A DNA stretch of 24,289 nucleotides from the IMG/VR virus record IMGVR_UViG_3300028602_001425, positions 1 through 24,289 of that record, one strand, 5' to 3'. Shown here piece after piece: positions 3 through 21,458 of the stretch. This stretch comes from a virus. Position 1 is the first letter of the stretch, and each line of letters starts with the position of its first letter. The notes beneath the pieces are model-generated. The model ran no database searches. It was given only the letters and a program-made list of their open reading frames with translations, and was not told the origin of the DNA. The position numbers were made by a program, and so were the translations under genes.

Positions 3-173
3 GAATATGAAATATACAAAAATGAACATTTAGCACCATCAGAGTATTATCAAGAGGGGAAAACATGTTTCTGGCATTTGAGAAGACATCTTAAATTCGA
101 GACACCTATCTCTTACAAACCACCAAGAGGCGCGGTTGTGTGGTCGATTTTTGAACTTCCAGAGGATAAATGA
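3..173 (+). CDS. C-terminal fragment of an ASCH/PUA-like domain protein (5' truncated by window)
   Basis: Frame 3 is open from base 3: EYEIYKNEHLAPSEYYQEGKTCFWHLRRHLKFETPISYKPPRGAVVWSIFELPEDK*. The W-x-L...P-I-x-Y-K-x-P-x-G-A-V-V-W tail resembles ASCH C-termini. ATGA overlap with the next gene. Not in the ORF track. Confidence 0.5.
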   Translation, partial: EYEIYKNEHLAPSEYYQEGKTCFWHLRRHLKFETPISYKPPRGAVVWSIFELPEDK

Positions 174-511
174 ACGGTAAACAACACGAAGCCCTTAACT
201 TCTATGCCCTCTTTCCTACTCTCTTTTTATTAGGGTATTACAGAGCGTCTATTATATTCTCAATTCTTTTTGTTTTAAAATGGATCTGGAATACTTACTA
301 TTTCACGCCTGATGTAGACACCCATTCAAGAGCAACAAAAAGGTTGGGCGCGATTGGTTGGATTATAAACAAAATCTTCGGACATCGTAAGACCTTGCAT
401 AATCCATTTTTCTGGATAGTTCTCTTTGGAATTGAATATTATTTCTTAGGTGCTTGGGTGTTGGGTGGAGTGTTCCCAGTGGCTTCACATCTTGTCACAG
501 ATAAGCTTTAA
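170..511 (+). CDS. Membrane metal-binding protein, DUF2227/YdjM-like putative hydrolase
   Basis: Hydrophobic helices with N-terminal His, TPDVD, GHRxxLH and SHLxxD motifs typical of this superfamily. Confidence 0.7.
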   Translation: MNGKQHEALNFYALFPTLFLLGYYRASIIFSILFVLKWIWNTYYFTPDVDTHSRATKRLGAIGWIINKIFGHRKTLHNPFFWIVLFGIEYYFLGAWVLGGVFPVASHLVTDKL

Positions 512-680: not shown

Positions 681-1673
681 ATGACTCTTTTTATTGAGGG
701 CAATGTCTACCCCATAAATCAAAAAAACGTTAACAATTGGGGTCTGAAAGACTCAGAAACAGACAACGCTATCAACTCTCTTAAATCGTCTGTTGTTCGT
801 ATATGCTCCCGCGAAAGTCCTCACGGTTGCGATATCACAGAAGACCCAAAAGCGGAAATCGGGCGCGTAATGGATGCCTGGCAGGACGGCAACCACATCA
901 AAGCGAAAGTTGCCATTACTGATTCGATCGCCTCTCAAAAAATTTCAGATGGTACATGGAATAATACTTGGAGCATCTACGGAAAAGCTGCAAGCGTAAC
1001 CGACGGATGGGCTACTAATTTTAATGCACGTTCTTTAACACTCGTTCAGAACCCCGCATGGGCCGACGCTTCCTGGGAAGTTGCAGCTTCAGAGGGAGGA
1101 GAAACAGGACTGAAAACGTTTTCTGAATTTACGATTATAACAGCCTCACAAAATACACAAGGTGGTCATATGACAGCCGAACTAGAAACAAAAATCAAAG
1201 AACTGGAAAAACAGCTTGCCGCGAGTGAAGCGACAATACAGGAACTTACTCCAAAAATTGAACCTCTGGAAACTCAGATAGAAGAACTGACAGCCAGCAA
1301 AGCGACTCTTGAAAAAGAGCTAAGTGAAAAAGTGTCACTCATTGCATCTTTTGAGAAAGAAAAAGCAGGCAGCGTACCGATGGAAACCGTAAAAACATTG
1401 ATTGCCTCCGCAATTGCAGACCACGACGCTGAAAAAGCCAAGGAAACCGAAAGGGAAACAGCATTCAAGGCTTTTGCAAGTGCCCGCGAGAAAGTCGGAC
1501 TTGAGACTAAACCAGAAGACTATAAGAGTCTTGCAGCTTCCGATCTCTCAAAACTCGCTGAAGAGTTTTCAGGTGTGGAGCTTTCCGCAGGGGCTCAGTA
1601 TCCTGCAACACCAACCGGGACAAATACGGCATGTACGGGCGCATATAACGCCAAAACAGGAGCGTGGGAGTAA
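681..1673 (+). CDS. Prohead maturation protease fused to coiled-coil scaffold (330 aa)
   Basis: N-terminal ~135 aa with candidate catalytic His48 (SPHG) and Ser98 (WSIYG), plus LVQNPAWADA resembling HK97/assemblin-fold proteases; C-terminal half is an E/K/A-rich heptad coiled coil; lies upstream of cement and MCP. Confidence 0.85.
   Translation: MTLFIEGNVYPINQKNVNNWGLKDSETDNAINSLKSSVVRICSRESPHGCDITEDPKAEIGRVMDAWQDGNHIKAKVAITDSIASQKISDGTWNNTWSIYGKAASVTDGWATNFNARSLTLVQNPAWADASWEVAASEGGETGLKTFSEFTIITASQNTQGGHMTAELETKIKELEKQLAASEATIQELTPKIEPLETQIEELTASKATLEKELSEKVSLIASFEKEKAGSVPMETVKTLIASAIADHDAEKAKETERETAFKAFASAREKVGLETKPEDYKSLAASDLSKLAEEFSGVELSAGAQYPATPTGTNTACTGAYNAKTGAWE
1170..1673 (+). CDS. 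Probable nested in-frame scaffold protein (167 aa) from internal start Met164
   Basis: AAGGTGGTCAT-ATG: AGGTG Shine-Dalgarno 5 nt before an in-frame ATG at the start of the coiled coil, with spacing like other genes in the operon. Confidence 0.6.
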   Translation: MTAELETKIKELEKQLAASEATIQELTPKIEPLETQIEELTASKATLEKELSEKVSLIASFEKEKAGSVPMETVKTLIASAIADHDAEKAKETERETAFKAFASAREKVGLETKPEDYKSLAASDLSKLAEEFSGVELSAGAQYPATPTGTNTACTGAYNAKTGAWE

Positions 1674-2206
1674 TGTCAAATCTAGGACTCAGGAAACCAA
1701 CAAACAAAATTGTAGCTGCCGGTAAACCCCTTGTCATGGAGCTTAACGTCGAAACAGCTACAAACATGTACCCAGGACGGCTCGTAATCAAGGGCTCAAA
1801 CGATAATGATATCAAAGTTTGTGGAGCAGCCGGGATCTCTGTCGGATGGCTCGGATACGAACAGGTAACAAATGCGGGATTCATGCCGACGGACGTGAAC
1901 ACCATCTATGCAGCAGGGGCACAGGCTCCGGTTTTGTATGGTGGCGGTTTTGTCGTTGTTGCATCACTTGCTGATAGCAATACCATTGTAAAAGGTGACC
2001 GGCTCGTAGCCGCCGCAAACGGGGAAGTATCAAAAGCAGCCGCAGCAGCCACAAAAGCGGGAAATACAGAAGTAAAAAGTTCTGCCACCCCTGCTCCTAT
2101 TTCTGGTACTGTCCCAGAGGGCGGTATTGTCGTAGGTATCGCAATGGAATCAGTGACAACCGGAGCCGGTGTCTCTGCTGACCTGATGGTCCTGAGCCTG
2201 ATCTAA
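1673..2206 (+). CDS. Capsid cement/decoration protein (DUF2190-like), 177 aa
   Basis: Gly/Ala/Val-rich with PGRLV...GWLGYE...KGDRLVAAANGEV pattern; between scaffold and MCP. Start moved to ATG 1673 (TAATG coupling) rather than GTG 1664. Confidence 0.75.
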   Translation: MSNLGLRKPTNKIVAAGKPLVMELNVETATNMYPGRLVIKGSNDNDIKVCGAAGISVGWLGYEQVTNAGFMPTDVNTIYAAGAQAPVLYGGGFVVVASLADSNTIVKGDRLVAAANGEVSKAAAAATKAGNTEVKSSATPAPISGTVPEGGIVVGIAMESVTTGAGVSADLMVLSLI

Positions 2207-3752: not shown

Positions 3753-4052
3753 TTGATATTTCCGAAACGGGAAGGTGATGGTACGGCGGTAGGGCAGTCC
3801 CCGGCTTATGTTTTACGGGGAGAATGTGAAAAAAACCGAGAAGTTACTAAATGCGACCTAAAAGAGTTAATAATCCAGGAGCGAGAGGACCGGAAAGAGG
3901 GCGAAAAAGAATTGAAAACCGAAATCAGTAAAGGGCTTGAGGACGTTCAAAATGAATTATGCTCTGTTAGAACTGCTTTGTTAGGGCTTGCAGTATCTAT
4001 TACTATCGCCATCATTGTTGCAATTTTAGAGTTTGTCCTAGGAAAGTTTTAA
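3753..4052 (+). CDS. Coiled-coil protein with C-terminal transmembrane helix (XhlA/holin-like); start uncertain (TTG)
   Basis: Charged heptads followed by ALLGLAVSITIAIIVAILEFVL; GGGGG 12-16 nt upstream of TTG; the frame is open only from 3723. Confidence 0.65.
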   Translation: MIFPKREGDGTAVGQSPAYVLRGECEKNREVTKCDLKELIIQEREDRKEGEKELKTEISKGLEDVQNELCSVRTALLGLAVSITIAIIVAILEFVLGKF

Positions 4053-5109: not shown

Positions 5110-5847
5110 ATGACGGACCATATTGACACACTAGGAACAATTGTAACAATTGATGGGATTACCATACACGGTATCGACATCGACACTATCCCGATCCCTG
5201 ACGGGGACACGGGTGACAAAAACACTTCAACTCTTGATTCAGGGACTACAATGGATAAGGGTCTTGGGATGTTTGACCCCGGAAGCGCTGAAATTACCGG
5301 GATAAAAATATCGGGAGATGCCGGACAGGCTGCATTAGTCGAGGCTTACGGAGACAGGGTTCTGCACACGTTTCAGGTCAATGTAGTCGATGCCGGGGAA
5401 GTATACGAATATCAGGGTTATGTCACAAAATTTAATCCCGGAAGCGCGGATAACACTTACAAATTCTCATCAAAGATTCTTGCATCTGGGGCTTTCAGTC
5501 TTTCGACTACCTACGCGGGCATTGACTCAATAGGGGGAGCCGGGGACGGAATTGCTTACTCTCCTGCAACTGCAAATACAGAACTTCCTTCAACTGCAAA
5601 TGATGTCATTTTCAAAGAGGCAACAGATACAACCACTGATACCGTAAAAGTGACAGCCTCTTTAGCCTCGTATATCGGCATTTCATACAATAATGGATCA
5701 ACCTGGAATACCCTCACTAGTGGGACCGCAACCGACGTGCCTGAAGCAAACTGGCCAGCCACCGGAGAACTTACGAAAGCTCTTATCAAAGTTAAGGAAA
5801 CGGGCAAAGCAACCCGATTTGTGAACCTGTTCATAGCAAGGGCTTAA
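5110..5847 (+). CDS. Major tail tube protein (lambda gpV-like) with C-terminal Ig/cadherin-like domain
   Basis: TSTLDS...GLGMFDPGSAEITG...GDAGQ...YEYQGYVTKF motifs in aa 1-130; aa ~140-245 Thr-rich beta-sandwich. Confidence 0.85.
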   Translation: MTDHIDTLGTIVTIDGITIHGIDIDTIPIPDGDTGDKNTSTLDSGTTMDKGLGMFDPGSAEITGIKISGDAGQAALVEAYGDRVLHTFQVNVVDAGEVYEYQGYVTKFNPGSADNTYKFSSKILASGAFSLSTTYAGIDSIGGAGDGIAYSPATANTELPSTANDVIFKEATDTTTDTVKVTASLASYIGISYNNGSTWNTLTSGTATDVPEANWPATGELTKALIKVKETGKATRFVNLFIARA

Positions 5848-6683: not shown

Positions 6684-8639
6684 ATGGGACTGATAGGAGA
6701 AGTATACGCAGATGCCGGGCTACATGTCGATAAAGCCTCTTTTGCTCAATATGCCTCGATGCTGAAGCAGACAGAGGGGCAAATCGGGGATATGTCCTCT
6801 AGTATGCAGGCTGGGATGGTAACTGCATTTTCTGTTCCTGCCGCCGCCGTTGCCGGAATAGCTGCTTATGGTACGACTATAGCCGCTTCTTATGAGGATG
6901 CAAACCTCACTCTCAAAACCTTATATGGAAGTCAAGAAGCTGCACAGCAAAAATTTCAATGGTTACAGCAATTCGCCGCGACAACTCCTTTTGAATTTCC
7001 TGAACTTCTCGAAGCTGCAACCCGTCTAAAGGCTTACGGAATGGACGTGGAGCAATACGGGAGGACTCTAGGAGATACAGCCGCAGGTATGGGAAAGCCC
7101 ATAATGGCAGTAGTTGAAGCGATAGCAGACGCTCAGCAGGGCGAATTTGAAAGGATGAAAGAGTTTGGTATCAAAGCTGTTGAAATCACAAAAAAGAATT
7201 ATGAACAGTTGGGTGCTTCCGTAGAGGATGCTGGCAGAACTGCACTCACGTTCATGGACAAAAACGGCAAGCAGCAGATTGAAGTCATTGATCGAAATAA
7301 CAAAGAAATGATCACCTCTACTATTTCGGCAATTTGGAACGACAAATATGCCGGAGCAATGGAAGAACGTTCCAGGTCATTTAACGGCATGATCTCAGCT
7401 ATTAAAGACAACCTTAAAGCCGGCCTTGCTGATATGGTCGGTTTCGACATGCAGACCGCAACCATTGAAGGGGGAAGTCTTTTAGGAGTTCTTAAGGATC
7501 TTGCCGGTGTTGCTCTTGTTGTTACGGGTGCGTTTTCTAACATGTCTGAACCCATGCAGACATTTGTTTTAGTCGCTGCTCTCGGTGGTGCTGCTGCTCT
7601 TGCTCTTGGTGCGGGGTTCGTGGCAGCAAGTGCGGCGGGAATAACTACTACTGCTGTAATGGGTGCGTTAGGAATCGCTGTCAACACTGTGTTATGGCCC
7701 GCTACCCTCATAGTAGGAACTCTTGCGTTAGTGGCGGCTGGACTTGTTTATCTCGATGAAAAAACAGGGGCGGTAACGTACTCATGGAATTTGATGAAGG
7801 ACATCTTCACAATTGTTGCGTCTGGAATCATGAACGCTGCCTCGATCCTCTGGAATTACATTGTCCAAGCAATGGATGGTATCAAGACAGCTATAGCTGA
7901 TATGTTCCCGCCTGGATTTCTGGAAGGTGTCGGAAACGTTGTAAACGGGGTAATATCCCAATTCACAAACATGGGTAGCAATATTCATACCCAGGCCGAA
8001 GGAATCCGGCAGGATAATACTAACATTGGAACATCAGCAACTACCGCAGGGAGTCAAGTAACCGGAGCCACCGGAGAGATGATTGCGGGGTATTCAGGGG
8101 CAGGTGCGTCTGTTCTTGGTATGAGTTCCACAACCCACACGGCGACGGGCCAAATGATTTCGGATTTTAATACCACGGGCGGAGCCGCAGATTTAATGGG
8201 TGGAGATATCGCCGGAACGGTTGCACCCGTGAACACTTTATCCGGGACGGTGAAAGGAGCAACCGGGGCAAATCAGACGTATGCAGCATCATTTATAAAT
8301 GTCTCAAATCAGGCGAACGCCGCCGCTTCTGCTGCAATTTCAGCCGCTAATAGGATCGGAGCCGCAATAAAAACTAACATAAATCAGGTTGGAGAACTTG
8401 AAGCACTCGCGGGAAAATGGAACACAAGGGCAGCATTAGGCATTACGTCTTCGGGTGGCTCAGGGACCGGGGAAGGAAATGTTAAAATCAAAACTCCTGC
8501 GAATATGTTAACAGCATCAGAAACGGCAGCACGCAAAGCGAATAACACAGTATATAATAATAACATCACGAATAAAAATACAATAAACAATAACGGGGAC
8601 AAGTTGAGTGCCTCGAGAGCTAAGGCAGCAGGGGTCTAA
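6684..8639 (+). CDS. Tape measure protein (651 aa)
   Basis: LKTLYGSQEAAQQKFQWLQQFAATTPFEFPELLEAATRLKAYG tape-measure N-domain motif, central hydrophobic Ala/Gly stretch; ~0.15 nm/residue suggests a tail of roughly 95 nm. Confidence 0.95.
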   Translation: MGLIGEVYADAGLHVDKASFAQYASMLKQTEGQIGDMSSSMQAGMVTAFSVPAAAVAGIAAYGTTIAASYEDANLTLKTLYGSQEAAQQKFQWLQQFAATTPFEFPELLEAATRLKAYGMDVEQYGRTLGDTAAGMGKPIMAVVEAIADAQQGEFERMKEFGIKAVEITKKNYEQLGASVEDAGRTALTFMDKNGKQQIEVIDRNNKEMITSTISAIWNDKYAGAMEERSRSFNGMISAIKDNLKAGLADMVGFDMQTATIEGGSLLGVLKDLAGVALVVTGAFSNMSEPMQTFVLVAALGGAAALALGAGFVAASAAGITTTAVMGALGIAVNTVLWPATLIVGTLALVAAGLVYLDEKTGAVTYSWNLMKDIFTIVASGIMNAASILWNYIVQAMDGIKTAIADMFPPGFLEGVGNVVNGVISQFTNMGSNIHTQAEGIRQDNTNIGTSATTAGSQVTGATGEMIAGYSGAGASVLGMSSTTHTATGQMISDFNTTGGAADLMGGDIAGTVAPVNTLSGTVKGATGANQTYAASFINVSNQANAAASAAISAANRIGAAIKTNINQVGELEALAGKWNTRAALGITSSGGSGTGEGNVKIKTPANMLTASETAARKANNTVYNNNITNKNTINNNGDKLSASRAKAAGV

Positions 8640-8642
8640 AAA

Positions 8643-11600
8643 ATGGTTACAGTTTATGTTTCCAATCTTGGGACAGATGATTATACAGTTGACGGAGATG
8701 CAGATCAGGTACAAATCAATCAAGCCCTCACTTATGCAAACACAAACGGAACACAAGCCAGTCCGGTAACAGTCTATCTCCGAGGCCCGTACACTTATGA
8801 TCTTACAGACAACCTTTTAGCCGGCTCAAACACCATCTTCACGGGAGATACCACAGCAGTATTGAGATTACATAATAGCGCAGGATGGGCACTCTGGAAG
8901 CCGTTAATAGGTCAAATATCCGGTGTAACTCCTCAAAATTTCACTTTTACAAATATTACTGTCGATGGAAATTACGCGAATCAACCCGAATTTACTGCCG
9001 GAAATTGGGGAGATGGCTATTATCCAGGGCTGTTTTTCCAGGGAACTTTAGCTAATCCAGTAAGAAATATTTCAATTCATGATGCTTTATTTAAGGGCAC
9101 TCTAACTGACGGTGTAAGGCTGTCCTATGCCGATTCTGTGAATTTTTATAATAATAAAACCGTAGAATGTATGCACGAGGGCATCTATGTTTTACGGTCT
9201 AAAAACTGTAACATCTATTCAAATTATTTTACCATCCGGACAAACTCGGGACCGAGAATATATAACTCTCAAAATGTCAAGATTTATAATAATACAATGC
9301 GTCCTTATGCCCTTAATTCGGTTGCAGGAAACTTCGGGATTCAAATAGAGGACAATCCATCAAATAAGGACATAACTCTCTATAATGTCGATGTCTATGG
9401 AAATACCCTGGTCAATTGTTGGGGCGGTGGAATCTGGCTTATTGACCTGCAAGGGACATCTACAAACAAGGCTATAAAAATCCATGATAACACAATAACC
9501 GGCTGCGGGAGAATCACAACTACAAATTATAACGCAGGAATCACGATCCAGGGTTTAAATGGAGTTGAAATTTATAATAATGTTCTGAAAGATAATTATA
9601 ACGCAGGTATTTTAATTGCTAATGCTCCGAGCGGAGGCTCAGGATATACTTATTATTACACAAATAATGTAGTTTCCGGCACGCTCGACACTCTTGCGAC
9701 ATCTTCAACTAATATAAAAACTGGTCATGGTTTTGGAGTAGTTAACAGAGTTCCTGCTTCTGTTTCTGTTATAGCTACAAATAATATAGTGAGTGCAAAC
9801 GCTAACGGAGATTATTATCAGGTTAGTAATCTTAATGATGTCCAGACAACTCCTCCGGTAAAGGTCGTTCCGGCAATCCGTATTAATGAGATTGATGAAA
9901 TTGTAGATTATTATATTCCTGGATATGTTTCGTATGTGAACGGCTACCCGGTATTGATTCGAGGCTTCGAGCCGGACACTGATGAAAGCATCGGCACAGA
10001 CAAACCTCCAGGTTGGGACGGATGGGTACTCGGAGATTTCGGCAGCGACGGAACATCAATTAATTTCAGATGTCACGCAATGGGGAAAGATGATTACAGA
10101 AGAGCAGTCGCTTCTTGGAAAAAGAAAGGGAGGGCTTATGTTGAGATCGGAGAAGACCCAGGCTGGCAGGTATCAGGGATTGTCAGAAATCATAATCATA
10201 GAATAGATAAGGACGCAGGAGACATCATGGGGGATGAATCAGCTTATGATTATAATGTTTCCTTTTATAGTGATTCTCCATTTGAGGAGACTGTAAACAA
10301 GCACGTAAGGGCTAGAAAGTTAACGTTCTCTGGGGAGCAGTGGAGCGCAGATAATACTTATGCCGGAAACATCTTAGCTAATCCTTCGTTTGAGGAATGG
10401 ACTAAGGGGGTCACTCAGACGTGGATACCTCGGACCTCTGCTTCGAGTGTAGATTTTAAGGCTGTCGAACACTCCGAAGATCTTTCACAATATTGTGCGG
10501 TGGCTCAGAATAGTATTCAAATATCCTCAGATGCGGTTTCTTGGAGTGTTCCTGGCACACTTCCTGCAAACATTTCAAACGCTTGGAAAGGGCTTATCTG
10601 GGGAGAAACTACAGGAATTGATACGGCCGCCTCTACTCTGAATTATATTCCAGTGTCGTCTGATGGATATATAATGGTATCCTCTGATAATTATACCCCT
10701 GTTTCGACTGACCTCTCAGAAGATGCAGGCATGGCTGCCGGGAGATGGGTAGCAGTCGGATACACCGCCGGAACTGCCGGAGCCGCATGGTCAATGGACG
10801 GGGATTCATGGACAGCAGGAGTCACCCCCACCGGTAATTTTGAAGGCATTTGTTATATCCGAGATGATAAAAATGGGATCTATAGATATGTTGCGGTTGG
10901 AAATAATTTAGTAATTTACTCAGACGACGGCGGAGAAACGTGGTCTTCGGTTGTTGTTTCAGGCTCATTTAAGGCAGTCTGTTATTCTACGACTCTTAAA
11001 AGATTACTTGCTGTTACCACATCTGGAGAGGTCATATATTCAGATAATTTCGCCGAAAATTGGGAGGCGGTTACTGCTCCTTCTCAGGCTTGGCAGGATG
11101 TAATCTACTCAGATACACAGAGTCTTTTCATAGTAATTTCTTCAGATGGGGGACCTCAGCAGGTCATGACCTCCCCCACAGGATTAAGTGGTTCGTGGAC
11201 CCTGCAAAACACTCCTATAGCCGGATCTATAGTTACCCCAGGCGAGGGGGATATTTCCACAGATACGAGACAGACCGATGCAGGATACGTCTACACATCT
11301 GCTGCAATGGTCTATAGTTCCGCTAATACAAGCCTCGAATGGACTTATGTACTCCCTGCTCTTACAGATGGGAGTTTCTACAGACTCGATAGGGTTTTCG
11401 GAAAATTAAGAACCCTTTTAGCTGGAAAAATAGCATACCTGAAAGTGACTATCCATGCGGCCTCTTTATATTCTGGGGTCGAAACGGATCTCATAGAATG
11501 GACTAATAACACCACAACATATTCCCAGAAGTCTTATGATCTAGCGATAGAATCTGAAACGTCTGAAACTGTAACCATCAGATTCTACATGAAAACGTCT

Positions 11601-13460
11601 GACTCTAATTATAGAGCAGCTGCAACAGATCTAGGATTTACGTTTACAGTCGCTGGAGAAACAGGCGGCGAAGTCTCTTATCTGTATAATGAATGGTCTG
11701 CGATCTCAGAAGCTCCTGACAGCGGAATTATTGTAGCAGTCGCTTCAGCAGGAGAAGATAACCAGATAATGACCTCGATAAACGCGGGAATCTGGAATCT
11801 GCAAGCATGTGATAAAGCACTTGCATCAATTTGTTATTCCGAGAGCGATATTAAGTTTGTTACCTGCGGGGCTTCAGGGGCTATCCTAACATCTAGCGAT
11901 TATGGCAGATATGCCAATCCAGATGGATGGGCAGCAGTCAATCCTGGCACTTCTCGCTCTGAGAATTCCACAACGGGAACTTATGCGCTCTTGATTACAG
12001 GAGACGGTTCTACAGATGAGCCTGGAATGATTACTCAGCCAGTCGCTTTTGAAGGCGGTGTGACTTATGCACTTACTGGAGAAGTAGAAAAAGTTGGCTC
12101 TGATGGAATCGCAGTAATTGACATCTATGCTAATGAAGAGGTTATCGCGTCTCTGGAATGGGCAAACGAGGGCACATACTCAGAAAAACAGGAATATATA
12201 AAATTTGAAGTTTCTCCCGTAGGTGCTGTCCTGAGAATTCACGGCTCGGAAACTCCTTCGGCAGGCACTCTGATGTATTTTGACCATATAGTCCTTCAGA
12301 AACTCTCTGACCTCGATATTGATGAATTCGGTTCTGGAATCCTGACAAGCGGGACAGTTGAAACGGTTCCTGATATTTCAATTGAGTCTATGGGGACGCT
12401 CGCGGGATCTGTGGAAGGAAAAGAAACACCAGGGAACTCAAAAACAAATACCGATTTGACAAATGTTGGTAGTACAGCATTTCTTACATACCAGCTTCAG
12501 GACTTTTTCAATTATACCATTTCAGGAGTAGCTGGAAAGAAATACCGGATTGACAAGGTAGGGATAAAAGGATGTGTCGCGGCTTCTGGTGGTAGATGTG
12601 ACTCAAAAATAGAAGTTTATTTAGGCTCCACGTTGGCGGGAACTTACACATTTAGTTCAACTTCTGTACTTGCTTCTTATACATCCCATTCTGCAACCCC
12701 TAACATAATTTGTGAAGCAGGGCAATCAATCTCTTTCAAGTGGTATCTTAAGTCTTCATCGACTTCGATAAGGGCTTATATTCGTGATGCTACGGTAACT
12801 TATACTGAAATCCTGAGTACACCCACAGTTAACATAGATGCAGGTATTTCAGTCTTTAACATCGAAGATCCTTTAACTGTTATGAGGTTAAGCAACAGGA
12901 TTTTCCCCGGAGTAAAAACAACAATAGCCGCAGACGGGACTGGATCTTACAGGTATCTCGAAAATTTCAAAGATTCGAGCTATCAGAGTGCAGTATTATC
13001 AAGGACGGGCGCCTCGTTTAACGAAAGTTTAAAGCAGGTTCTTTTATCTGGTAATCTGGTCTGGGAATTTGACACGCTATACCCAATAACCGGGATACCC
13101 TGGATGAATATTTATGTTGTTTCAGGAGTCCCTAAACTTGAAATTTCAGTTGATAATGTGACGTGGAGAGCTTGTGATAGTAATAATACGACTTCGATAA
13201 CCGGAGAACAGGTAACTAGGGAATTGGATAACGCAGAAAACCTGAGACTCTACGGAAAGACTAGATTTTATGTCCGGCTGTCCCCGGCTTCTGGAAATCT
13301 TACAATTGGGTCTATCAGCCTGTTTACTTACCTGATTACTATTGATGCAGAACGTCCTGTTATTTCCGCTAACGGAGAGGCTAATACATTCCAGGTCAAT
13401 ATGTCAAATAATGTCCCCTGCATTGTTTCAATGAAATACCCGGATAAACACTGGATCTGA
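8643..13460 (+). CDS. Giant distal tail protein (Dit) with N-terminal disaggregatase-like beta-helix and nested CBM/beta-propeller/jelly-roll insertions (1605 aa)
   Basis: Between tape measure and hub. aa 1-400 parallel beta-helix; aa ~430-570 Dit-like N-domain; NILANPSFEEWT (576-587) resumes at ANPDGW (1091); Asp-box repeats (e.g. SDDGGETW); C-terminus ANGEANTFQV...IVSMKYPDKHW like Dit termini. Confidence 0.85.
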   Translation: MVTVYVSNLGTDDYTVDGDADQVQINQALTYANTNGTQASPVTVYLRGPYTYDLTDNLLAGSNTIFTGDTTAVLRLHNSAGWALWKPLIGQISGVTPQNFTFTNITVDGNYANQPEFTAGNWGDGYYPGLFFQGTLANPVRNISIHDALFKGTLTDGVRLSYADSVNFYNNKTVECMHEGIYVLRSKNCNIYSNYFTIRTNSGPRIYNSQNVKIYNNTMRPYALNSVAGNFGIQIEDNPSNKDITLYNVDVYGNTLVNCWGGGIWLIDLQGTSTNKAIKIHDNTITGCGRITTTNYNAGITIQGLNGVEIYNNVLKDNYNAGILIANAPSGGSGYTYYYTNNVVSGTLDTLATSSTNIKTGHGFGVVNRVPASVSVIATNNIVSANANGDYYQVSNLNDVQTTPPVKVVPAIRINEIDEIVDYYIPGYVSYVNGYPVLIRGFEPDTDESIGTDKPPGWDGWVLGDFGSDGTSINFRCHAMGKDDYRRAVASWKKKGRAYVEIGEDPGWQVSGIVRNHNHRIDKDAGDIMGDESAYDYNVSFYSDSPFEETVNKHVRARKLTFSGEQWSADNTYAGNILANPSFEEWTKGVTQTWIPRTSASSVDFKAVEHSEDLSQYCAVAQNSIQISSDAVSWSVPGTLPANISNAWKGLIWGETTGIDTAASTLNYIPVSSDGYIMVSSDNYTPVSTDLSEDAGMAAGRWVAVGYTAGTAGAAWSMDGDSWTAGVTPTGNFEGICYIRDDKNGIYRYVAVGNNLVIYSDDGGETWSSVVVSGSFKAVCYSTTLKRLLAVTTSGEVIYSDNFAENWEAVTAPSQAWQDVIYSDTQSLFIVISSDGGPQQVMTSPTGLSGSWTLQNTPIAGSIVTPGEGDISTDTRQTDAGYVYTSAAMVYSSANTSLEWTYVLPALTDGSFYRLDRVFGKLRTLLAGKIAYLKVTIHAASLYSGVETDLIEWTNNTTTYSQKSYDLAIESETSETVTIRFYMKTSDSNYRAAATDLGFTFTVAGETGGEVSYLYNEWSAISEAPDSGIIVAVASAGEDNQIMTSINAGIWNLQACDKALASICYSESDIKFVTCGASGAILTSSDYGRYANPDGWAAVNPGTSRSENSTTGTYALLITGDGSTDEPGMITQPVAFEGGVTYALTGEVEKVGSDGIAVIDIYANEEVIASLEWANEGTYSEKQEYIKFEVSPVGAVLRIHGSETPSAGTLMYFDHIVLQKLSDLDIDEFGSGILTSGTVETVPDISIESMGTLAGSVEGKETPGNSKTNTDLTNVGSTAFLTYQLQDFFNYTISGVAGKKYRIDKVGIKGCVAASGGRCDSKIEVYLGSTLAGTYTFSSTSVLASYTSHSATPNIICEAGQSISFKWYLKSSSTSIRAYIRDATVTYTEILSTPTVNIDAGISVFNIEDPLTVMRLSNRIFPGVKTTIAADGTGSYRYLENFKDSSYQSAVLSRTGASFNESLKQVLLSGNLVWEFDTLYPITGIPWMNIYVVSGVPKLEISVDNVTWRACDSNNTTSITGEQVTRELDNAENLRLYGKTRFYVRLSPASGNLTIGSISLFTYLITIDAERPVISANGEANTFQVNMSNNVPCIVSMKYPDKHWI

Positions 13461-13464
13461 TACT

Positions 13465-14652
13465 ATGCTCTGGTATTTCAGACCCCGATTAATAATTCAA
13501 AAACCAACAGGAGAGAGGTATTTTCCAAAAATCGTTTCTGCTTCTGTCACGGAAACAAGGGAATTCTCAAATCCTGAATTCGCAGAAATCGAGATAATCA
13601 CAAACAGAAGTCCTTATACTTCTGAATTTGTTAATGCAATTTCAGAGGATGATATAGTCAGATTACAAGTTTCCTGCCGGATGTCCCCCAAGGAAAAATA
13701 CGTTTTTGTTGACATCTTCGAGGGACTTGTAAGAAGAATTTCAGGAGATTATTCAACTAAAAATAATACTTCTATTTTGTGCAAAGGGCACATAGATGAG
13801 GCTACAAAGCTCTTGATAAGAGAGGCTAAAACGTGGACAGGAACTGTCGAAGCCAGGGAAATATTAACCTATCTTGTAAATCCTGCACATAATGTAACGC
13901 GGCTTACGTGGTTGAATCAGGCTCCTTATGTAGACCAGACCGGCAGTGTTTCTTTTACCGATGCTGAATCGGCGTATGCTACAAAAGCAGATCAAACTTA
14001 TTTATCAACTGTTTTTCAGGATCTAGAAAAGCAAAGTGGTTATAACTGGAAAATAGGCACTAAGTGTCTCTATGCCACAACAGGACTGCTTGATAAGACC
14101 TACTTAACTTGGAAACAAAATTCTGCAATCGCTACGGACAAATACAAAGCAATCGAGGGCACTGCAAGGTATCTAGGAAGCACTTTTGTGTTGTCGATCG
14201 AAGATCAGGCTACCGAATACGTGATAAAGGGAGATACACCCGAGGCCGGAACTCAATATAGTGGATCTGCAATTAATATCAATGCAGTTTCCCGCTACGG
14301 ATATAAGACCGATGTTGATGTTTTTACACAGTTACAAAGTAACGCGACTTGTAAAAGTATAGCTGAAGGTGCTCTACCTGACAAAATTCAAGCCGAAATA
14401 ACAGGCTCAATAAAATTGGTTGGAACCCCGGACGCCAGTGCCGGAGATGTTGTTTATGTTAAAACGCGATCAACAGAGCTTAACGGCGGTGTCATTTCAG
14501 GTAATTTTGACGTTTCAAGAGTCAGGCATGTAATCTCTTCTAATTCTTATCATACTGAAATTCAAGTCGGTGGAATTGTAGAAAATGCTTATGATCTTAT
14601 TGCGAAAATTAAGAAAACTTCTACAGTAACAAAATGTAATCAGGTGAAATAA
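13465..14652 (+). CDS. Baseplate hub / Tal (gp27/GPD-like) protein
   Basis: DIFEGLVRRI...LCKG, and C-terminal GSIKLVGTPDASAGDVVYV...FDVSRVRHVIS...TEIQV typical of hub folds; follows Dit. Confidence 0.8.
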   Translation: MLWYFRPRLIIQKPTGERYFPKIVSASVTETREFSNPEFAEIEIITNRSPYTSEFVNAISEDDIVRLQVSCRMSPKEKYVFVDIFEGLVRRISGDYSTKNNTSILCKGHIDEATKLLIREAKTWTGTVEAREILTYLVNPAHNVTRLTWLNQAPYVDQTGSVSFTDAESAYATKADQTYLSTVFQDLEKQSGYNWKIGTKCLYATTGLLDKTYLTWKQNSAIATDKYKAIEGTARYLGSTFVLSIEDQATEYVIKGDTPEAGTQYSGSAININAVSRYGYKTDVDVFTQLQSNATCKSIAEGALPDKIQAEITGSIKLVGTPDASAGDVVYVKTRSTELNGGVISGNFDVSRVRHVISSNSYHTEIQVGGIVENAYDLIAKIKKTSTVTKCNQVK

Positions 14653-16647
14653 ATGACAGCTCAAGAATATCCAATCTCAGGAATGACAATATCTGAAATC
14701 GTGGATTCTCTAACGAATACTAGAGATCCAAATGCTCACGCGGCTTCCCACAAATCAGGTGCTACAGACGCGCTGAAACTTACGGATTTGGCGGTAGCGG
14801 ATAACGTAACTGCCAATAATGCGACAACTACAAGACCTGGACTGTGCCCTAAACTCTCCGGGACATCTACAGAATACCTTGACGGTTCGGGGGCTTGGTC
14901 AACGCCTGACGGGGGATCCTCAATCACACTCCCAGGATCATCCACAGTTTTTTATAACGGTCTGGGTGGGTGGTCTACTCCTTCAGCATCCGGCTCAACG
15001 TTTAAGCCGTATATAACGATAGGGAGAACAGGATCAGGCGCAGATTACGAATGTGACGGGACCAGTGATAACGTTCAGATTCAGAAAGCTCTTAGTGACG
15101 TGAGTTCTGGAACCCAGATTGTATTTTTGCAAGGGACTTATAATTGTACTTCCCCACTTGCTATAAATTCAAAGAGTTTGTGGTTAAAAGGCATCGGAAA
15201 CGTAACCATTAATTTTGCTCTTTCGGGATATCAGGCGGCTGCAATGCAGTTCCAGGGGTCGTCGGTACTATCCACGACTCTTTCTTCGAATGCATCAAAG
15301 GGAGCTACCTCTGTTGTACTCACGTCAGTTTCAGGAGTCAGTGCGGGACAGTTAATTGTAATTTACAATGATGTCATATGGTCAGACTATCCTGATTACA
15401 ATGATATCTGCACGGGTGAAACATACGAAATAAAATCAGTATCAGGAAGTACAGTATACCTAAGTGATCCACTTGTACGCACTTATAACACTGCTGATAC
15501 TGCCAGTGCTCGCATTTTCTCGCCTGTAGAAATTCATATGGAAAATCTTAATATAGTTGGTGACGGTGCTTCCGGCGACCAGTTGGGACTTATTGTGAGG
15601 TATGGGAGTAAAATAAGTGTCAATAGGTGCTCTTTTAAAGATAATAATCTTTCAGGAATTATTCTATACACATGTTATGATGTTGACATTTATGGTAACA
15701 GTATAAACAATTGTACATTAGACGGACTTGGGTATGGTGTGGCTATTACTACGGCATCTGCAAAAGCTAGGATCACACATAACAATATAAACAATTGCAG
15801 ACATTGCATCTCAGTTACAAGCAATAAAGCTGTTCACGGAATGAATAGGGATGTCATAATAGCAAATAACGTATGTTATGGATCATCAACGATCACTGGA
15901 GCCATCGACGCCCACCCCAACTGTATAAATTGGATGGTCGTAAATAACATTATCCATGCGGTAAACAGGGGCATTATTAACGGCGCACAGCACATGATTT
16001 GTGAGGGTAATGAATTTAGGGACATCTCAGAAGGTGCAATATTTCATAACAAAGTGATAAATTTCCCCAGGTCTGTGAAAATATCAGGTAACAAATGCCA
16101 GATGGGTGGATATTTCTACAGCGACACTTCCACTGATGATTACTCAACAGTATCAATCACAGATAACGAAATTGACGGGGGTTATATTTCTATTTATACT
16201 CCCTCATCAAAATCAAGAAACATAGAAGCAATCAACATCTCCAATAATATAATTAGAAATGTATCAGGAAAAGCGATAAATACTTACCTCGAAAATCAGA
16301 ACGGGCCTTCATATATTAATATCCATGATAACAATATCGTGGACTGTACGCAAGAAGGGATCTATGTAGATCTCGTTGTCGCAGAAAACAGTATAGTAAA
16401 TATATCAAATAATATAATTATAAATCCAAATTCATCCGCAGGAGGTTACGCGGGAATCAAGGCTCATAGAATGACATACAGTACTATTGAGGGTAATACT
16501 GTTTATGACACTGCAAGCCGTGGAGGGGCTGCAATTGCTACCGGGACAAGTTGCGATTATAACGTTGTTGTGGGTAATATTGCAAGAGGGACAACTGGAA
16601 TAAGTTTGACAGGATCAAATAACGTGTCAGAGCATAATTTATCATGA
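14653..16647 (+). CDS. Tail spike/fibre with right-handed beta-helix (putative depolymerase), 664 aa
   Basis: N-terminal fibre motifs (HAASH, GxWSTP repeats), GADYECDGTSDNVQIQKAL helix cap, inserted beta-domain (aa ~205-290), many I-x-x-N-x-I repeats to the C-terminus. Confidence 0.85.
   Translation: MTAQEYPISGMTISEIVDSLTNTRDPNAHAASHKSGATDALKLTDLAVADNVTANNATTTRPGLCPKLSGTSTEYLDGSGAWSTPDGGSSITLPGSSTVFYNGLGGWSTPSASGSTFKPYITIGRTGSGADYECDGTSDNVQIQKALSDVSSGTQIVFLQGTYNCTSPLAINSKSLWLKGIGNVTINFALSGYQAAAMQFQGSSVLSTTLSSNASKGATSVVLTSVSGVSAGQLIVIYNDVIWSDYPDYNDICTGETYEIKSVSGSTVYLSDPLVRTYNTADTASARIFSPVEIHMENLNIVGDGASGDQLGLIVRYGSKISVNRCSFKDNNLSGIILYTCYDVDIYGNSINNCTLDGLGYGVAITTASAKARITHNNINNCRHCISVTSNKAVHGMNRDVIIANNVCYGSSTITGAIDAHPNCINWMVVNNIIHAVNRGIINGAQHMICEGNEFRDISEGAIFHNKVINFPRSVKISGNKCQMGGYFYSDTSTDDYSTVSITDNEIDGGYISIYTPSSKSRNIEAINISNNIIRNVSGKAINTYLENQNGPSYINIHDNNIVDCTQEGIYVDLVVAENSIVNISNNIIINPNSSAGGYAGIKAHRMTYSTIEGNTVYDTASRGGAAIATGTSCDYNVVVGNIARGTTGISLTGSNNVSEHNLS
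14854..14982 (+). repeat. Two tandem 18-aa tail-fibre repeats
   Basis: LSGTSTEYLDGSGAWSTP (aa 68-85) and LPGSSTVFYNGLGGWSTP (aa 93-110). Confidence 0.7.
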
Positions 16648-19264: not shown

Positions 19265-19321
19265 CATGTAACAAAAACTGCTGCGCAGTTCGCCTGGATA
19301 AATTACTTTCATATGTGAAAA

Positions 19322-19329
19322 TTTATATA
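19322..19329 (+). promoter_or_regulatory. TATA box of the DUF1699 operon
   Basis: GTGAAAA-TTTATATA, ~50 nt before ATG 19378. Confidence 0.55.
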
Positions 19330-19377
19330 CAACTAAAAATAATTAACAGTGATAAAAACATTAAGGAGCCATCCCAA

Positions 19378-19782
19378 ATGCAAATAAAAGTAATATCAGG
19401 ACGGGACGAGATCCCTCTATTATTGCCAAATGAAAAAATAGTCCATATCGGATTTAGACCTTCAAACGCTGATATATATAGTGTCTGTGAATCCTGCCCG
19501 AAAATAGAGGCAATACAAGTACCGCCGTCGTATTTCGTCAGCATTTCAAAATCTATTCAAACATTTCTCAGAATGCAGAAAATACAACTGTTAGAGGGAG
19601 ATGTAGGAGGGCACAGGAAAGACCTGCATCCTTATTATGTTGTTCCCTCTTATATCACTGAAAAAATCAAAGAAATGAAAGAAGACGGAACAAAACCGGA
19701 CGACATTGTTAAATTTGTGTCAAGACTGCATAGAATGAGTGAGCCGTTAGCCGCTTATGTTGTGCAGTCTGTGAAGGTGTGA
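19378..19782 (+). CDS. DUF1699 family protein (134 aa)
   Basis: MQIKVISGRDEI...EKIVHIGFRPSNADI...CPKIEAIQVPPSY...ISKSIQTFLRMQKIQLLEGDVGGHRKDL, recognised as the Methanosarcinales DUF1699 pattern; start moved to ATG 19378 (AAGGAG RBS). Confidence 0.85.
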   Translation: MQIKVISGRDEIPLLLPNEKIVHIGFRPSNADIYSVCESCPKIEAIQVPPSYFVSISKSIQTFLRMQKIQLLEGDVGGHRKDLHPYYVVPSYITEKIKEMKEDGTKPDDIVKFVSRLHRMSEPLAAYVVQSVKV

Positions 19783-20039: not shown

Positions 20040-21458
20040 ATGGCAACATTAACACTAACACCAGGCACTTTTAAACAGTCAACTTTTGATAAAGTCGGTG
20101 ACGGTTTTCAGTATGACACTATCCACTTAAAACCGGGAGCCTATACCGCATCTCTCCCCTATAAATTAAATTCTGGGACTACAATTACAGCCGATCAGGG
20201 AGCAATAATTACCCTGATTCCGAATGCTTCAGAATCTCTTTTTCCCTCGATGCGGCCAATCTTCGGACAGGTTAAAAATACTATCCAAAATATTGATATT
20301 TCAGGTTTGACAATTGATGGGAACAGTGGCCGGCAGACAGTGCCCTCTGGAAAAGGTTTTCATAATGCGTTTTGGTTTCAACGTTCTGAAAATATTAACA
20401 TTCACGATTTGACAGTCCAAAACTCGCTGGGGGATGGGCTAAGAATCACCGACGGGAAAAACATTACATTCGCAAGAAATAAAGTTCTCCGTTGTGGCCA
20501 TGATGCGGTTTACTGCGACGGAGCGGATACAGTAGACGTTTTTAACAATTATGTTGAACTGAGAGTAAATTCAGGCTGTCGGTTGAGACATACCAAAAAC
20601 GGGCACGTTTATAATAATTACATAATTAATAAAAATGGGGGGGCAGCATCAAGCCCAGGCATGCAGATCGAAGTCTCAACGGCGGGAATGTCCTCCAAAA
20701 ATATCCTGATAGAAAATAATGAAATAAGAGGGACTTGGGGGCCGGGTATTTGGGTTATTGGGCTTGTGAATTCTAATATTTCAGCAGCTACCGGGCTGAC
20801 AATAAGAAATAATCTATTTTACGATTGCGGCAACATGGACGGGTCTTATCACCATATACCAGGAGTGGGCGGCATTGTTGCGGATGGTTGGGATAAGTTA
20901 GATGTCTCTTATAATACTTTTGATAAGTGTCTCGGTTATGGGGTTTCGCTTGGGCCTTATGTCTCGGCTACTCCTGCGGGGAAAGGATATAGTGCGAAGA
21001 TCTACAGAAACATTATAACGAATACTCAGAAGTCGAATGAAGTCGGGACGGCATCAGGGGCGGCCATTGCTAATCTTGTGCAGGATAGATATACATCTGT
21101 TGAAGTCTATGAAAACTGTACTTATGGGAATGTTCGGAATTATTACGGAGTTTCGCCGTCCAAGGAGATCCTCTCAGATCCTCTCTATGCCGGGGATGGA
21201 GATTATCATCTGAAATCTACAGCAGGGCGGTATTCGGGCTCTCAGTGGGTCATGGATGATGTAATGAGCCCGTGTATATTATCTGAATACGAGCTAGGCA
21301 TGTATGGAGGGACTTCTGAAGCATCTCGGTATACTGCTCTACCTGTCGAACCGGAACCCGTACAAACTGTTTATGTTGTGATTCCCTGCGAGAGTGAGGA
21401 AAGCGCGAAACAAACTGCTGACGGGCATGAGGGTGCGTTTATAATCTATCGAAAATGA
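20040..21458 (+). CDS. Free-standing disaggregatase-like parallel beta-helix protein (putative polysaccharide depolymerase), 472 aa
   Basis: PSMRPIFGQ, GKGFHN, GDGLRI, GHD, RVNSGCRL, PGMQIE, GPGIW and DYHLKSTAGRY...SPCI motifs, as recalled for Methanosarcina disaggregatase-related proteins; no signal peptide. Confidence 0.85.
   Translation: MATLTLTPGTFKQSTFDKVGDGFQYDTIHLKPGAYTASLPYKLNSGTTITADQGAIITLIPNASESLFPSMRPIFGQVKNTIQNIDISGLTIDGNSGRQTVPSGKGFHNAFWFQRSENINIHDLTVQNSLGDGLRITDGKNITFARNKVLRCGHDAVYCDGADTVDVFNNYVELRVNSGCRLRHTKNGHVYNNYIINKNGGAASSPGMQIEVSTAGMSSKNILIENNEIRGTWGPGIWVIGLVNSNISAATGLTIRNNLFYDCGNMDGSYHHIPGVGGIVADGWDKLDVSYNTFDKCLGYGVSLGPYVSATPAGKGYSAKIYRNIITNTQKSNEVGTASGAAIANLVQDRYTSVEVYENCTYGNVRNYYGVSPSKEILSDPLYAGDGDYHLKSTAGRYSGSQWVMDDVMSPCILSEYELGMYGGTSEASRYTALPVEPEPVQTVYVVIPCESEESAKQTADGHEGAFIIYRK

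What the first reader, a model, noticed from the sequence alone, without database searches (positions are those of the whole stretch)
8643..9842. Disaggregatase-like beta-helix fused to the N-terminus of the distal tail protein
Seen: aa 1-400 form a parallel beta-helix with DQVQINQAL, LRGPYTY, GSNTIFTGDTTAVLRL, AGWxxWKPLIGQ, RTNSGPRIYNS, AGNFGIQIE and WGGGIWLI motifs, fused upstream of a Dit-like domain. Known (recalled, not searched): these motifs match Methanosarcina disaggregatase-related proteins (Disaggr_assoc), and disaggregatase degrades the methanochondroitin matrix. Evolved Dits normally carry carbohydrate-binding modules inserted internally, not an N-terminal enzyme. Inference: the virus captured a host matrix hydrolase and displays about six copies on the Dit ring to tunnel into cell aggregates.
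Basis: partly seen in the sequence, partly recalled or inferred. Interest (0 to 1): 0.85.

Follow-up and report, generated by a model that had tools for sequence, protein, structure and literature searches.

The report
Disaggregatase-like enzyme on viral tail ring
A tailed virus of the methane-making archaeon Methanosarcina has, fused to the front of the ring protein at its tail tip, a domain related to the host enzyme family that dissolves the sugar matrix gluing Methanosarcina cells into clumps, so the virion probably cuts its own way to the cell surface.

Summary
ORF 8643-13460 (1605 aa) begins with a roughly 400-aa right-handed beta-helix. It passes Pfam Disaggr_assoc (68 bits against a cut-off of 22.6). 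It aligns end to end (aa 2-404, 32-39% identity) with the beta-helix module of Methanosarcina disaggregatase-type proteins.

After a short linker comes a true distal-tail-protein (Dit) ring domain, aa 424-554. The AF2 model has pLDDT 86.5, and its best PDB matches are Dit-class baseplate proteins, including SPP1 Dit (Z 9.5). The gene lies between the tape measure gene and a hub-like gene.

The host is Methanosarcina. Two spacers of one Methanosarcina CRISPR array match the window, and a collinear provirus in another Methanosarcina genome carries the same fused ORF.

About 30 protein clusters share the fusion. Distant relatives begin directly with the Dit domain. One relative carries an SGNH esterase plus PKD in the same N-terminal position, and another adds a GH16 glucanase. 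The N-terminus therefore behaves as a modular enzyme slot.

The "captured host hydrolase" idea is only partly supported. All fused domains form an old viral clade, separate from every cellular copy sampled. Catalysis and the substrate (methanochondroitin) are inferred, not shown. I class it as a new variant of evolved Dit and virion depolymerase.

The parts
8643..9827 (+). N-terminal right-handed beta-helix (aa 1-395) of the disaggregatase-related family. Candidate active-site residues are D156, H178, E179 and R205.
   Evidence: Pfam Beta_helix and Disaggr_assoc. Domain profile covers aa 1-406. 32-39% identity over aa 2-404 to Methanosarcina paralogs. Conserved residues.
9828..9911 (+). Inter-domain linker (aa 396-423). 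In homolog P0014 it is about 33 aa longer and rich in Pro, Asp and Gly.
   Evidence: Alignments A1 and A2.
9912..10304 (+). Dit ring domain with a tail-tube-like fold (aa 424-554).
   Evidence: AF2 model pLDDT 86.5. VIA-align Z 10.2 Mu baseplate, 10.0 Milano, 9.6 monocin, 9.5 SPP1 Dit, 8.8 TP901-1, 8.7 80alpha, 8.4 p2 ORF15. Foldseek E 2e-6 to 6e-5. Transitive PHROG 33 Dit link.
10368..10403 (+). Opening strand of a CBM4/9-like module (aa 576-587). The module is split by the insertion that follows.
   Evidence: Collinear with uninterrupted CBM-like modules of shorter relatives in alignment A4.
10404..11912 (+). Large insertion of about 500 aa (aa 588-1090) with weak BNR/Asp-box and beta-propeller signals.
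   Evidence: Weak Pfam Sortilin-Vps10 and BNR hits. 28% identity to hypothetical proteins of Synechococcus phages B3 and B23 over aa 594-845.
11913..12302 (+). Remainder of the CBM4/9-like module (aa 1091-1220).
   Evidence: Pfam CBM_4_9 E 9e-4 to 1.5e-3, below the gathering score. Alignment A4.
12303..13460 (+). C-terminal part shared with the 500-700-aa Dit-family relatives (aa 1221-1605).
   Evidence: Collinear conserved blocks with P0064, P0068, P0071, P0077, P0069, P0062, P0052, P0055 and P0056.
6684..8639 (+). Tape measure protein gene, ending 3 nt before the Dit start codon.
   Evidence: Pfam TMP_3 and PHROG tape-measure families.
13465..14652 (+). YQBQ-like hub or Tal-position protein (395 aa).
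   Evidence: Pfam YQBQ E 1.4e-5, just below the cut-off; PHROG 400 tail protein. The same gene order is seen in four of the five related loci; L010 has a 395-aa gene with no Pfam hit there.
14653..16647 (+). Separate beta-helix tailspike (664 aa).
   Evidence: Pfam Beta_helix and PHROG tail spike families.
20040..21458 (+). Second, stand-alone disaggregatase-related protein (472 aa).
   Evidence: Pfam Disaggr_assoc E 3e-33. 27% identity to aa 43-404 of the Dit fusion. It falls in a separate long-branch viral clade next to the cellular clade.
3895..3928 (-). Protospacer matched 32/34 by a full-length spacer of a Methanosarcina CRISPR array.
1643..1677 (-). Second protospacer, matched 31/35 by another spacer of the same array.

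Best explanation
ORF 8643-13460 encodes the distal tail protein (Dit) of a siphovirus-type virus of Methanosarcina. Its ring-forming domain (aa 424-554) is preceded, through a flexible linker, by a 400-aa beta-helix. That beta-helix is homologous over its whole length to the putative catalytic module of the cellular disaggregatase (Dag) family. By analogy with solved Dit hexamers, the tail tip would carry a collar of about six such modules.

The most likely function is a virion-borne glycan depolymerase that cleaves the methanochondroitin matrix around Methanosarcina aggregates. This would let the tail reach the S-layer, where the separate tailspike and the hub act.

The viral module lacks the DNRLRE/CBM96-type repeats of the cellular enzymes. 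Substrate binding may instead come from the CBM4/9-like and propeller-like modules nested in the Dit body.

Shown here: family membership of the beta-helix, the Dit fold and gene position, the Methanosarcina host, and conservation of the fusion. Inferred: catalysis, substrate, copy number, and presence in the mature virion.
For: Beta-helix family:
- Pfam Disaggr_assoc scores 68 bits.
- 32-39% identity over aa 2-404 to 8-12 paralogs per Methanosarcina genome.
- Those paralogs have the Dag-type architecture Beta_helix + Disaggr_assoc (+Ig) + Disaggr_repeat.
- P0001 keeps 58 of the 78 positions that are at least 94% conserved in cellular copies. These include D156, H178, E179 (for D) and R205, spaced one rung apart.
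- The nearest solved relatives by profile are the polyuronate-active AlgE6 and AlgE4 (E 3e-8 and 1e-5). Methanochondroitin contains glucuronic acid.

Dit identity:
- The gene sits between the tape measure gene and a hub-like gene in the window and in four related loci.
- The fold matches are given.
- Distant relatives start directly with this domain, and the base form P0064 sits at the Dit position of an archaeal provirus.

Fusion under selection:
- Present in about 30 clusters at the 50% identity level.
- Present in a provirus of a Methanosarcina genome.

Enzyme slot:
- P0050 has a GDSL/SGNH esterase plus PKD at the same position.
- P0011 adds a GH16 glucanase-like module (E 1.6e-9 to 1BYH).

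Host: two CRISPR spacers, a provirus, and a DUF1699 gene.

Biological rationale: methanochondroitin aggregates shield M. mazei from the virus MetSV (PMC12369344, PMC13437554).
Against: - No activity data exist for any viral member. Only one cellular paralog (M. mazei Dag) has been characterised (PMC12369344).
- The Pfam score is much lower than for cellular copies (68 against about 255 bits).
- Four polar positions conserved in cells are changed in P0001: E to T67, E to Y311, D to K316 and H to V374.
- The family also occurs in Methanococcoides, so the substrate of this subfamily is uncertain.
- Whether the N-terminus of the ring domain points outward was not tested.
Confidence: 0.6

Rival explanations
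1. The beta-helix is a non-catalytic adhesin. It binds the matrix or a surface glycan to hold the virion, as the CBMs of evolved Dits do, but does not cleave it.
For: Known evolved Dits act by binding, not cleavage. Several polar residues conserved in cellular copies are replaced in P0001. The match to Pfam Disaggr_assoc is much weaker than for cellular proteins.
Against: The D156, H178, E179 and R205 line and most family-conserved positions are kept across viral and cellular members. Sister proteins carry bona fide enzyme families at the same position: SGNH esterase and GH16 with its ELDIE motif. The protein already holds CBM-like modules for binding.
Confidence: 0.15
2. The domain is an active glycanase or lyase, but its substrate is another envelope glycan (S-layer N-glycans, another exopolysaccharide) rather than methanochondroitin.
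For: Each Methanosarcina genome holds 8-12 paralogs whose specificity is mostly unknown. Homologs exist in Methanococcoides. Antibody data suggest that M. barkeri and M. acetivorans lack a Dag like that of M. mazei (PMC12369344). The viral clade is distant from every cellular clade.
Against: The only characterised member of the family degrades methanochondroitin. The matrix is the outermost barrier for a tailed virus. The virus also encodes a separate tailspike and a second Dag-like protein that could take other substrates.
Confidence: 0.2
3. The module is a recent capture of a host disaggregatase gene by this virus.
For: It shares a family with host enzymes.
Against: The tree separates all fused domains from all sampled cellular copies at 99% SH-aLRT. 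Maximum cellular identity is 39% in 460 genomes sampled, against 43-48% to viral proteins. The fusion is shared by relatives down to 31% overall identity. GC3 is not unusual.
Confidence: 0.05
4. The protein is not the Dit ring but a fibre or side-decoration protein that only reuses a tube-like domain.
For: Tail tube proteins also match the model at Z about 7. Oligomer prediction gave no verdict.
Against: Dit-class proteins rank above tube proteins. No other candidate Dit lies between the tape measure gene and the hub gene in any of the related loci. A separate tube gene lies upstream at 5110-5847; its homologs hit Phage_TTP_12.
Confidence: 0.05

Closest known systems
Evolved Dit (evoDit) proteins of siphophages of Gram-positive bacteria (Lactobacillus J-1/PL-1, S. 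thermophilus cos/pac phages, Bacillus phage Deep-Purple Gp28)
   Same: A Dit ring protein encoded just after the tape measure gene, enlarged by extra carbohydrate-directed modules that face the host surface. This one also has CBM-like modules nested in the body.
   Different: Known evoDits carry non-catalytic CBMs inserted inside or after the ring domain. Here an enzyme-family beta-helix of 400 aa precedes the ring domain at the N-terminus. The virus infects an archaeon.
Methanosarcina mazei disaggregatase (Dag) and its paralogs (Beta_helix + Disaggr_assoc + DNRLRE/Disaggr_repeat)
   Same: Homologous beta-helix and Disaggr_assoc module over the full 400 aa. Most family-conserved residues are kept.
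   Different: No signal-peptide-type leader was looked for. There are no DNRLRE/CBM96-like repeats. Identity is only 32-39%. The viral domains form a separate clade. The module is attached to a virion protein rather than secreted.
Phage tailspike and tail-fibre depolymerases (for example Klebsiella phage capsule depolymerases, P22 tailspike)
   Same: A right-handed beta-helix on the virion that is expected to digest a surface polysaccharide barrier before irreversible binding.
   Different: Those are separate, usually trimeric, receptor-binding proteins docked on the baseplate. Here the helix is part of the Dit polypeptide itself. The virus also has a conventional tailspike gene.
Mannuronan C5-epimerase A-modules AlgE4 and AlgE6
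   Same: Nearest solved relatives by sequence profile (E 1e-5 and 3e-8). Both are beta-helix enzymes acting on polyuronates.
   Different: The AlgE catalytic YG(F/I)DPH(D/E) motif is not conserved in the alignment. The protein is not a member of that family.

Membership tests
Disaggregatase-related beta-helix family (Pfam PF08480 Disaggr_assoc; Dag-type proteins) | Scores above the curated Pfam threshold. | tested here: met
   68.3 bits against a cut-off of 22.6, aa 248-404; 74 bits in the six-frame search.
Disaggregatase-related beta-helix family (Pfam PF08480 Disaggr_assoc; Dag-type proteins) | Homology over the whole beta-helix module to cellular Methanosarcina members. | tested here: met
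   aa 2-404 aligned at 32-39% identity, E down to 6e-64. The cellular partners have Beta_helix + Disaggr_assoc + Disaggr_repeat.
Disaggregatase-related beta-helix family (Pfam PF08480 Disaggr_assoc; Dag-type proteins) | C-terminal DNRLRE / Disaggr_repeat (CBM96-like) repeats, as in the characterised Dag. | tested here: not met
   No PF06848 or CBM96 hit in P0001. A neighbouring gene in related locus L008 does have one.
Disaggregatase-related beta-helix family (Pfam PF08480 Disaggr_assoc; Dag-type proteins) | Retention of family-invariant polar residues (candidate active site). | tested here: inconclusive
   58 of 78 conserved positions are kept, including D156, H178, R205 and Y391. Four polar positions are changed. 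The catalytic residues of Dag are not known.
Disaggregatase-related beta-helix family (Pfam PF08480 Disaggr_assoc; Dag-type proteins) | Depolymerisation of methanochondroitin and dispersal of aggregates. | not testable with these tools
   Needs a recombinant enzyme assay.
Distal tail protein (Dit) | Gene lies directly downstream of the tape measure gene and upstream of the hub/Tal gene. | tested here: met
   TMP 6684-8639, this ORF 8643-13460, YQBQ-like 13465-14652. Same order in L003, L008, L009, L010 and the G439 provirus.
Distal tail protein (Dit) | Ring domain with the tail-tube-like Dit N-domain fold. | tested here: met
   Model pLDDT 86.5. SPP1 Dit Z 9.5, rmsd 2.9 over 115 residues; TP901-1 8.8; 80alpha 8.7; p2 8.4; Mu and Milano baseplate about 10. 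Tube proteins score about 7.
Distal tail protein (Dit) | Sequence-family link to annotated Dits. | tested here: inconclusive
   No direct Pfam or PHROG hit. The link is transitive only: the profile of aa 405-580 finds P0070 and P0078 (E 2e-5 and 1e-3), which hit PHROG 33 Dit (E 5e-8 and 6e-7).
Distal tail protein (Dit) | C-terminal galectin-like domain. | not tested
That region is collinear with shorter Dit-family relatives.
Distal tail protein (Dit) | Hexameric ring in the virion. | not testable with these tools
   Needs cryo-EM or a reliable multimer model.
Evolved Dit (CBM-bearing) | Carbohydrate-binding module inserted in the Dit body. | tested here: inconclusive
   CBM_4_9 hits at E about 1e-3 are below the gathering score. 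An uninterrupted CBM-like module sits at the same place in relatives.
Mannuronan C5-epimerase (AlgE/AlgG) | Catalytic YG(F/I)DPH(D/E) motif. | tested here: not met
   Profile hits to 5LW3 and 2PYG, but the motif falls in a poorly aligned stretch with no conserved counterpart.

The most novel reading that the evidence does not exclude
In this lineage of Methanosarcina (and related archaeal) siphoviruses, the N-terminus of Dit is a modular enzyme slot. Different members display different carbohydrate-active modules on the tail-tip ring: a Dag-like beta-helix, GH16 plus beta-helix, or SGNH esterase plus PKD. The Dag-like version would be the first viral methanochondroitinase, a direct counter to the aggregate-based protection that Methanosarcina uses against viruses.
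Probability: 0.4. Interest if true: 0.8.

Novelty: new variant of a known kind. Interest (0 to 1): 0.65.

Why it matters
Methanochondroitin aggregates are the only described physical shield of Methanosarcina against viruses (shown for MetSV). No viral means of breaching them has been reported in the literature searched.

A Dit-borne Dag-like enzyme would explain how tailed viruses reach cells inside aggregates. It would also extend the "evolved Dit" concept from binding modules to enzymes, and from bacteria to archaea.

It would supply a compact candidate disaggregating enzyme of about 400 aa without the DNRLRE repeats. Such an enzyme could be used to handle Methanosarcina granules in anaerobic digesters and in genetics. 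The modular N-terminal slot also gives a simple rule for finding surface-glycan enzymes in uncultured archaeal viruses.

Tried and rejected
- Direct Pfam or PHROG assignment of aa 405-580 to Dit: no hit.
- Profile of the Dit family against PDB sequences: no hit.
- First AF2 run with a 7-sequence alignment: pLDDT 38.6, unusable. Replaced by a 56-sequence alignment.
- Complex prediction with three copies of the ring domain: no verdict, score 0.00, and the fold was uncertain in the run. This is not evidence either way.
- Scan of genome contigs with the full-length alignment: no relatives found by the patterns chosen. The alignment A3 was too divergent to seed a scan. Proviruses were later found by a DNA search of the genus.
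- Phage collection tblastn: only a weak hit of the propeller-like insert to Synechococcus phages B3 and B23.
- Papers by Osumi 2008 and Xun 1990 on Dag are not held. Details of Dag architecture beyond the 2025 review rest on my recollection.
- GC and GC3 as a sign of recent acquisition: the beta-helix segment (GC3 0.32) is like the neighbouring tail-tip genes (0.32-0.35), so there is no signal.
- Equating H178 with the catalytic His of AlgE4: the alignment does not support it.

Full report
**What is there.** The window is a 24.3-kb viral metagenome record, estimated to be about 43% complete. Its + strand carries a tailed-virus structural module:
- cement protein and an HK97-like capsid protein;
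- tail terminator;
- a 245-aa tube candidate with two small genes after it;
- tape measure gene (6684-8639);
- a 1605-aa ORF (8643-13460);
- a 395-aa YQBQ-like hub-position protein;
- a 664-aa beta-helix tailspike.

No sheath gene was seen, so the tail is of the siphovirus type.

**The observation.** Pfam places Beta_helix at aa 137-289 and Disaggr_assoc at aa 248-404, with 68.3 bits against a cut-off of 22.6. A profile of the domain covers aa 1-406.

**Is the rest a Dit?** Direct family searches of aa 405-580 gave nothing, and a first AF2 model from seven sequences was useless. A profile search of 1.8 billion representatives found 56 proteins.
- The closer ones have the domain at about residue 400-640, behind a homologous beta-helix.
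- The distant ones (P0052, P0054-P0060, P0062-P0078) have it at their very N-terminus.
- Two of these, P0070 and P0078, hit PHROG 33 "distal tail protein Dit".
- Alignment A4 shows that the later blocks and the C-terminal 200 aa of the 1605-aa protein are collinear with these 500-700-aa proteins.
- One of them, P0064, sits at the Dit position of a provirus in an archaeal chromosome.

With the 56-sequence alignment, checked against HMMER's coordinates, AF2 gave pLDDT 86.5 for aa 420-580. The top structural matches are Dit-class baseplate proteins:

| Match | Z |
|---|---|
| Mu baseplate | 10.2 |
| Milano baseplate | 10.0 |
| monocin tip | 9.6 |
| SPP1 Dit | 9.5 (rmsd 2.9 over 115 residues) |
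| TP901-1 Dit | 8.8 |
| 80alpha Dit | 8.7 |
| p2 ORF15 | 8.4 |
| ordinary tube proteins | about 7 |

Fold, gene position and family links together make the Dit assignment firm.

**Relation to disaggregatase.** Methanosarcina genomes hold 8-12 paralogs that align with aa 2-404 at 32-39% identity. Those examined have the architecture Beta_helix + Disaggr_assoc (+Ig) + one or two Disaggr_repeat (DNRLRE/CBM96-like) domains. This is the Dag type described for M. mazei (review PMC12369344; CBM96 link in PMC9971899).

The viral module lacks those repeats. It keeps 58 of the 78 positions that are nearly invariant in cellular copies. These include the Asn ladder and a line of polar residues one rung apart: D156, H178/E179 and R205. 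Four conserved polar positions differ.

By sequence profile the nearest solved proteins are the polyuronate C5-epimerases AlgE6 and AlgE4. This fits a uronic-acid polymer substrate, but their catalytic motif is not conserved here. Catalysis is therefore plausible but unproven.

**Evolution.** Nine full-length homologs (31-66% identity) and about 30 clusters at the 50% level share the fusion. All examined loci keep the order tape measure, fusion, hub-like gene, and three of them also carry the tailspike. They often add a further Dag-like gene.

A maximum-likelihood tree of 77 beta-helix domains gives two sides of a 99% SH-aLRT branch:
- On one side are all fused domains. Nested among them (98%) are stand-alone 495-546-aa proteins. 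The one whose context I examined (P0017, locus L001) ends the tail module of another tailed virus.
- On the other side are all cellular Methanosarcinaceae copies, plus a long-branch clade of the second viral Dag-like proteins.

The module is therefore an old viral lineage that has moved between fused and free forms. A recent capture from the host is not supported, and the direction of the original transfer is open because the tree is unrooted.

**A modular N-terminal slot.** P0050 has a GDSL/SGNH esterase plus a PKD domain in front of the same Dit domain. P0011 has a GH16 lichenase-like module with an ELDIE motif in front of the beta-helix. P0035 has about 440 extra residues there. Three different carbohydrate-active families at one position argue for an enzymatic rather than a purely adhesive role.

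**Host.**
- In a genome of the same genus as Methanosarcina sp. T3, a CRISPR array with 41 exact 37-nt repeats holds a full-length spacer matching window 3895-3928 at 32/34. Another spacer of the array matches 1643-1677 at 31/35.
- Another genome of the genus carries a collinear provirus. Its 1603-aa ORF has both the beta-helix (E 5e-116) and the Dit domain (E 1e-51), followed by a hub-like gene and a Dag-like gene.
- The window also has a DUF1699 gene (19315-19782). That family is present in many copies in nearly all 59 Methanosarcina genomes searched.

**Mechanism proposed.** By analogy with solved Dit hexamers, about six beta-helices would be tethered by a 25-aa linker around the tail tip. 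The linker is longer and Pro/Asp/Gly-rich in P0014. They would degrade methanochondroitin, the matrix that shields aggregated cells from MetSV. The tailspike, the hub and the tape measure protein would then complete adsorption and DNA delivery. The CBM4/9-like module, split by a roughly 500-aa propeller-like insert, may hold the glycan.

**Comparison and verdict.** Known evolved Dits add CBMs, not enzymes, and none was found with an N-terminal catalytic-family module. Known virion depolymerases are separate spikes. No paper in the library links disaggregatase-like proteins to viruses. I rate this a new variant of a known kind, with interest 0.65.

**Caveats.** There are no activity data. The beta-helix was not modelled. 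Oligomer state is unknown. The tree used the quick search.

Noticed in passing
window 20040-21458: A second, stand-alone Dag-like protein (472 aa; Disaggr_assoc E 3e-33). With its counterparts in L003 and L005 it forms a separate long-branch clade next to the cellular clade. Related viruses place such a gene right after the tailspike. It could be a further tail enzyme or an egress enzyme.
   Followed up: partly
window 19315-19782: A DUF1699 gene (E 6e-46). The family occurs in many copies in nearly every Methanosarcina genome searched, at 66-72% nucleotide identity. This is a host-type multi-copy gene carried by the virus.
   Followed up: partly
window 3895-3928 and 1643-1677; L054 1564-1597: Two spacers of one Methanosarcina CRISPR array (37-nt repeat, 41 exact copies in the stretch read) match the window at 32/34 and 31/35.
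   Followed up: yes
L055 (G439 contig 10, 58000-77000): A collinear provirus in a Methanosarcina-genus genome. Gene order is 925-aa tape measure, 1603-aa beta-helix-Dit fusion, 386-aa hub-like protein, 453-aa Dag-like protein.
   Followed up: partly
L010 10001-10630 (P0011): An extra N-terminal GH16 1,3-1,4-beta-glucanase-like module (E 1.6e-9 to 1BYH, ELDIE motif) lies in front of the beta-helix of the Dit fusion.
   Followed up: partly
L056 557-3844 (P0050): A Dit-family protein whose N-terminal slot holds a GDSL/SGNH esterase plus a PKD domain instead of the beta-helix.
   Followed up: partly
L001 10001-11488 (P0017): A stand-alone 495-aa beta-helix, 43-48% identical to the fused domain and nested inside the fused clade. 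It ends the tail module of a different virus, after a 1236-aa DUF2341 protein. This suggests fission or exchange between fused and free forms.
   Followed up: partly
L020: A contig binned as 'uncultured Clostridia bacterium' carries two Dag-like genes that nest among Methanosarcina sequences in the tree. This is probably a binning error.
   Followed up: no
window 10422-11177 (aa 594-845): The propeller-like insert is 28% identical to hypothetical proteins of Synechococcus phages B3 and B23. These were the only hits in the phage collection.
   Followed up: no
window 170-511: A 113-aa ORF matching DUF2227 (metal-binding protein family, E 3.5e-8), upstream of the structural module.
   Followed up: no
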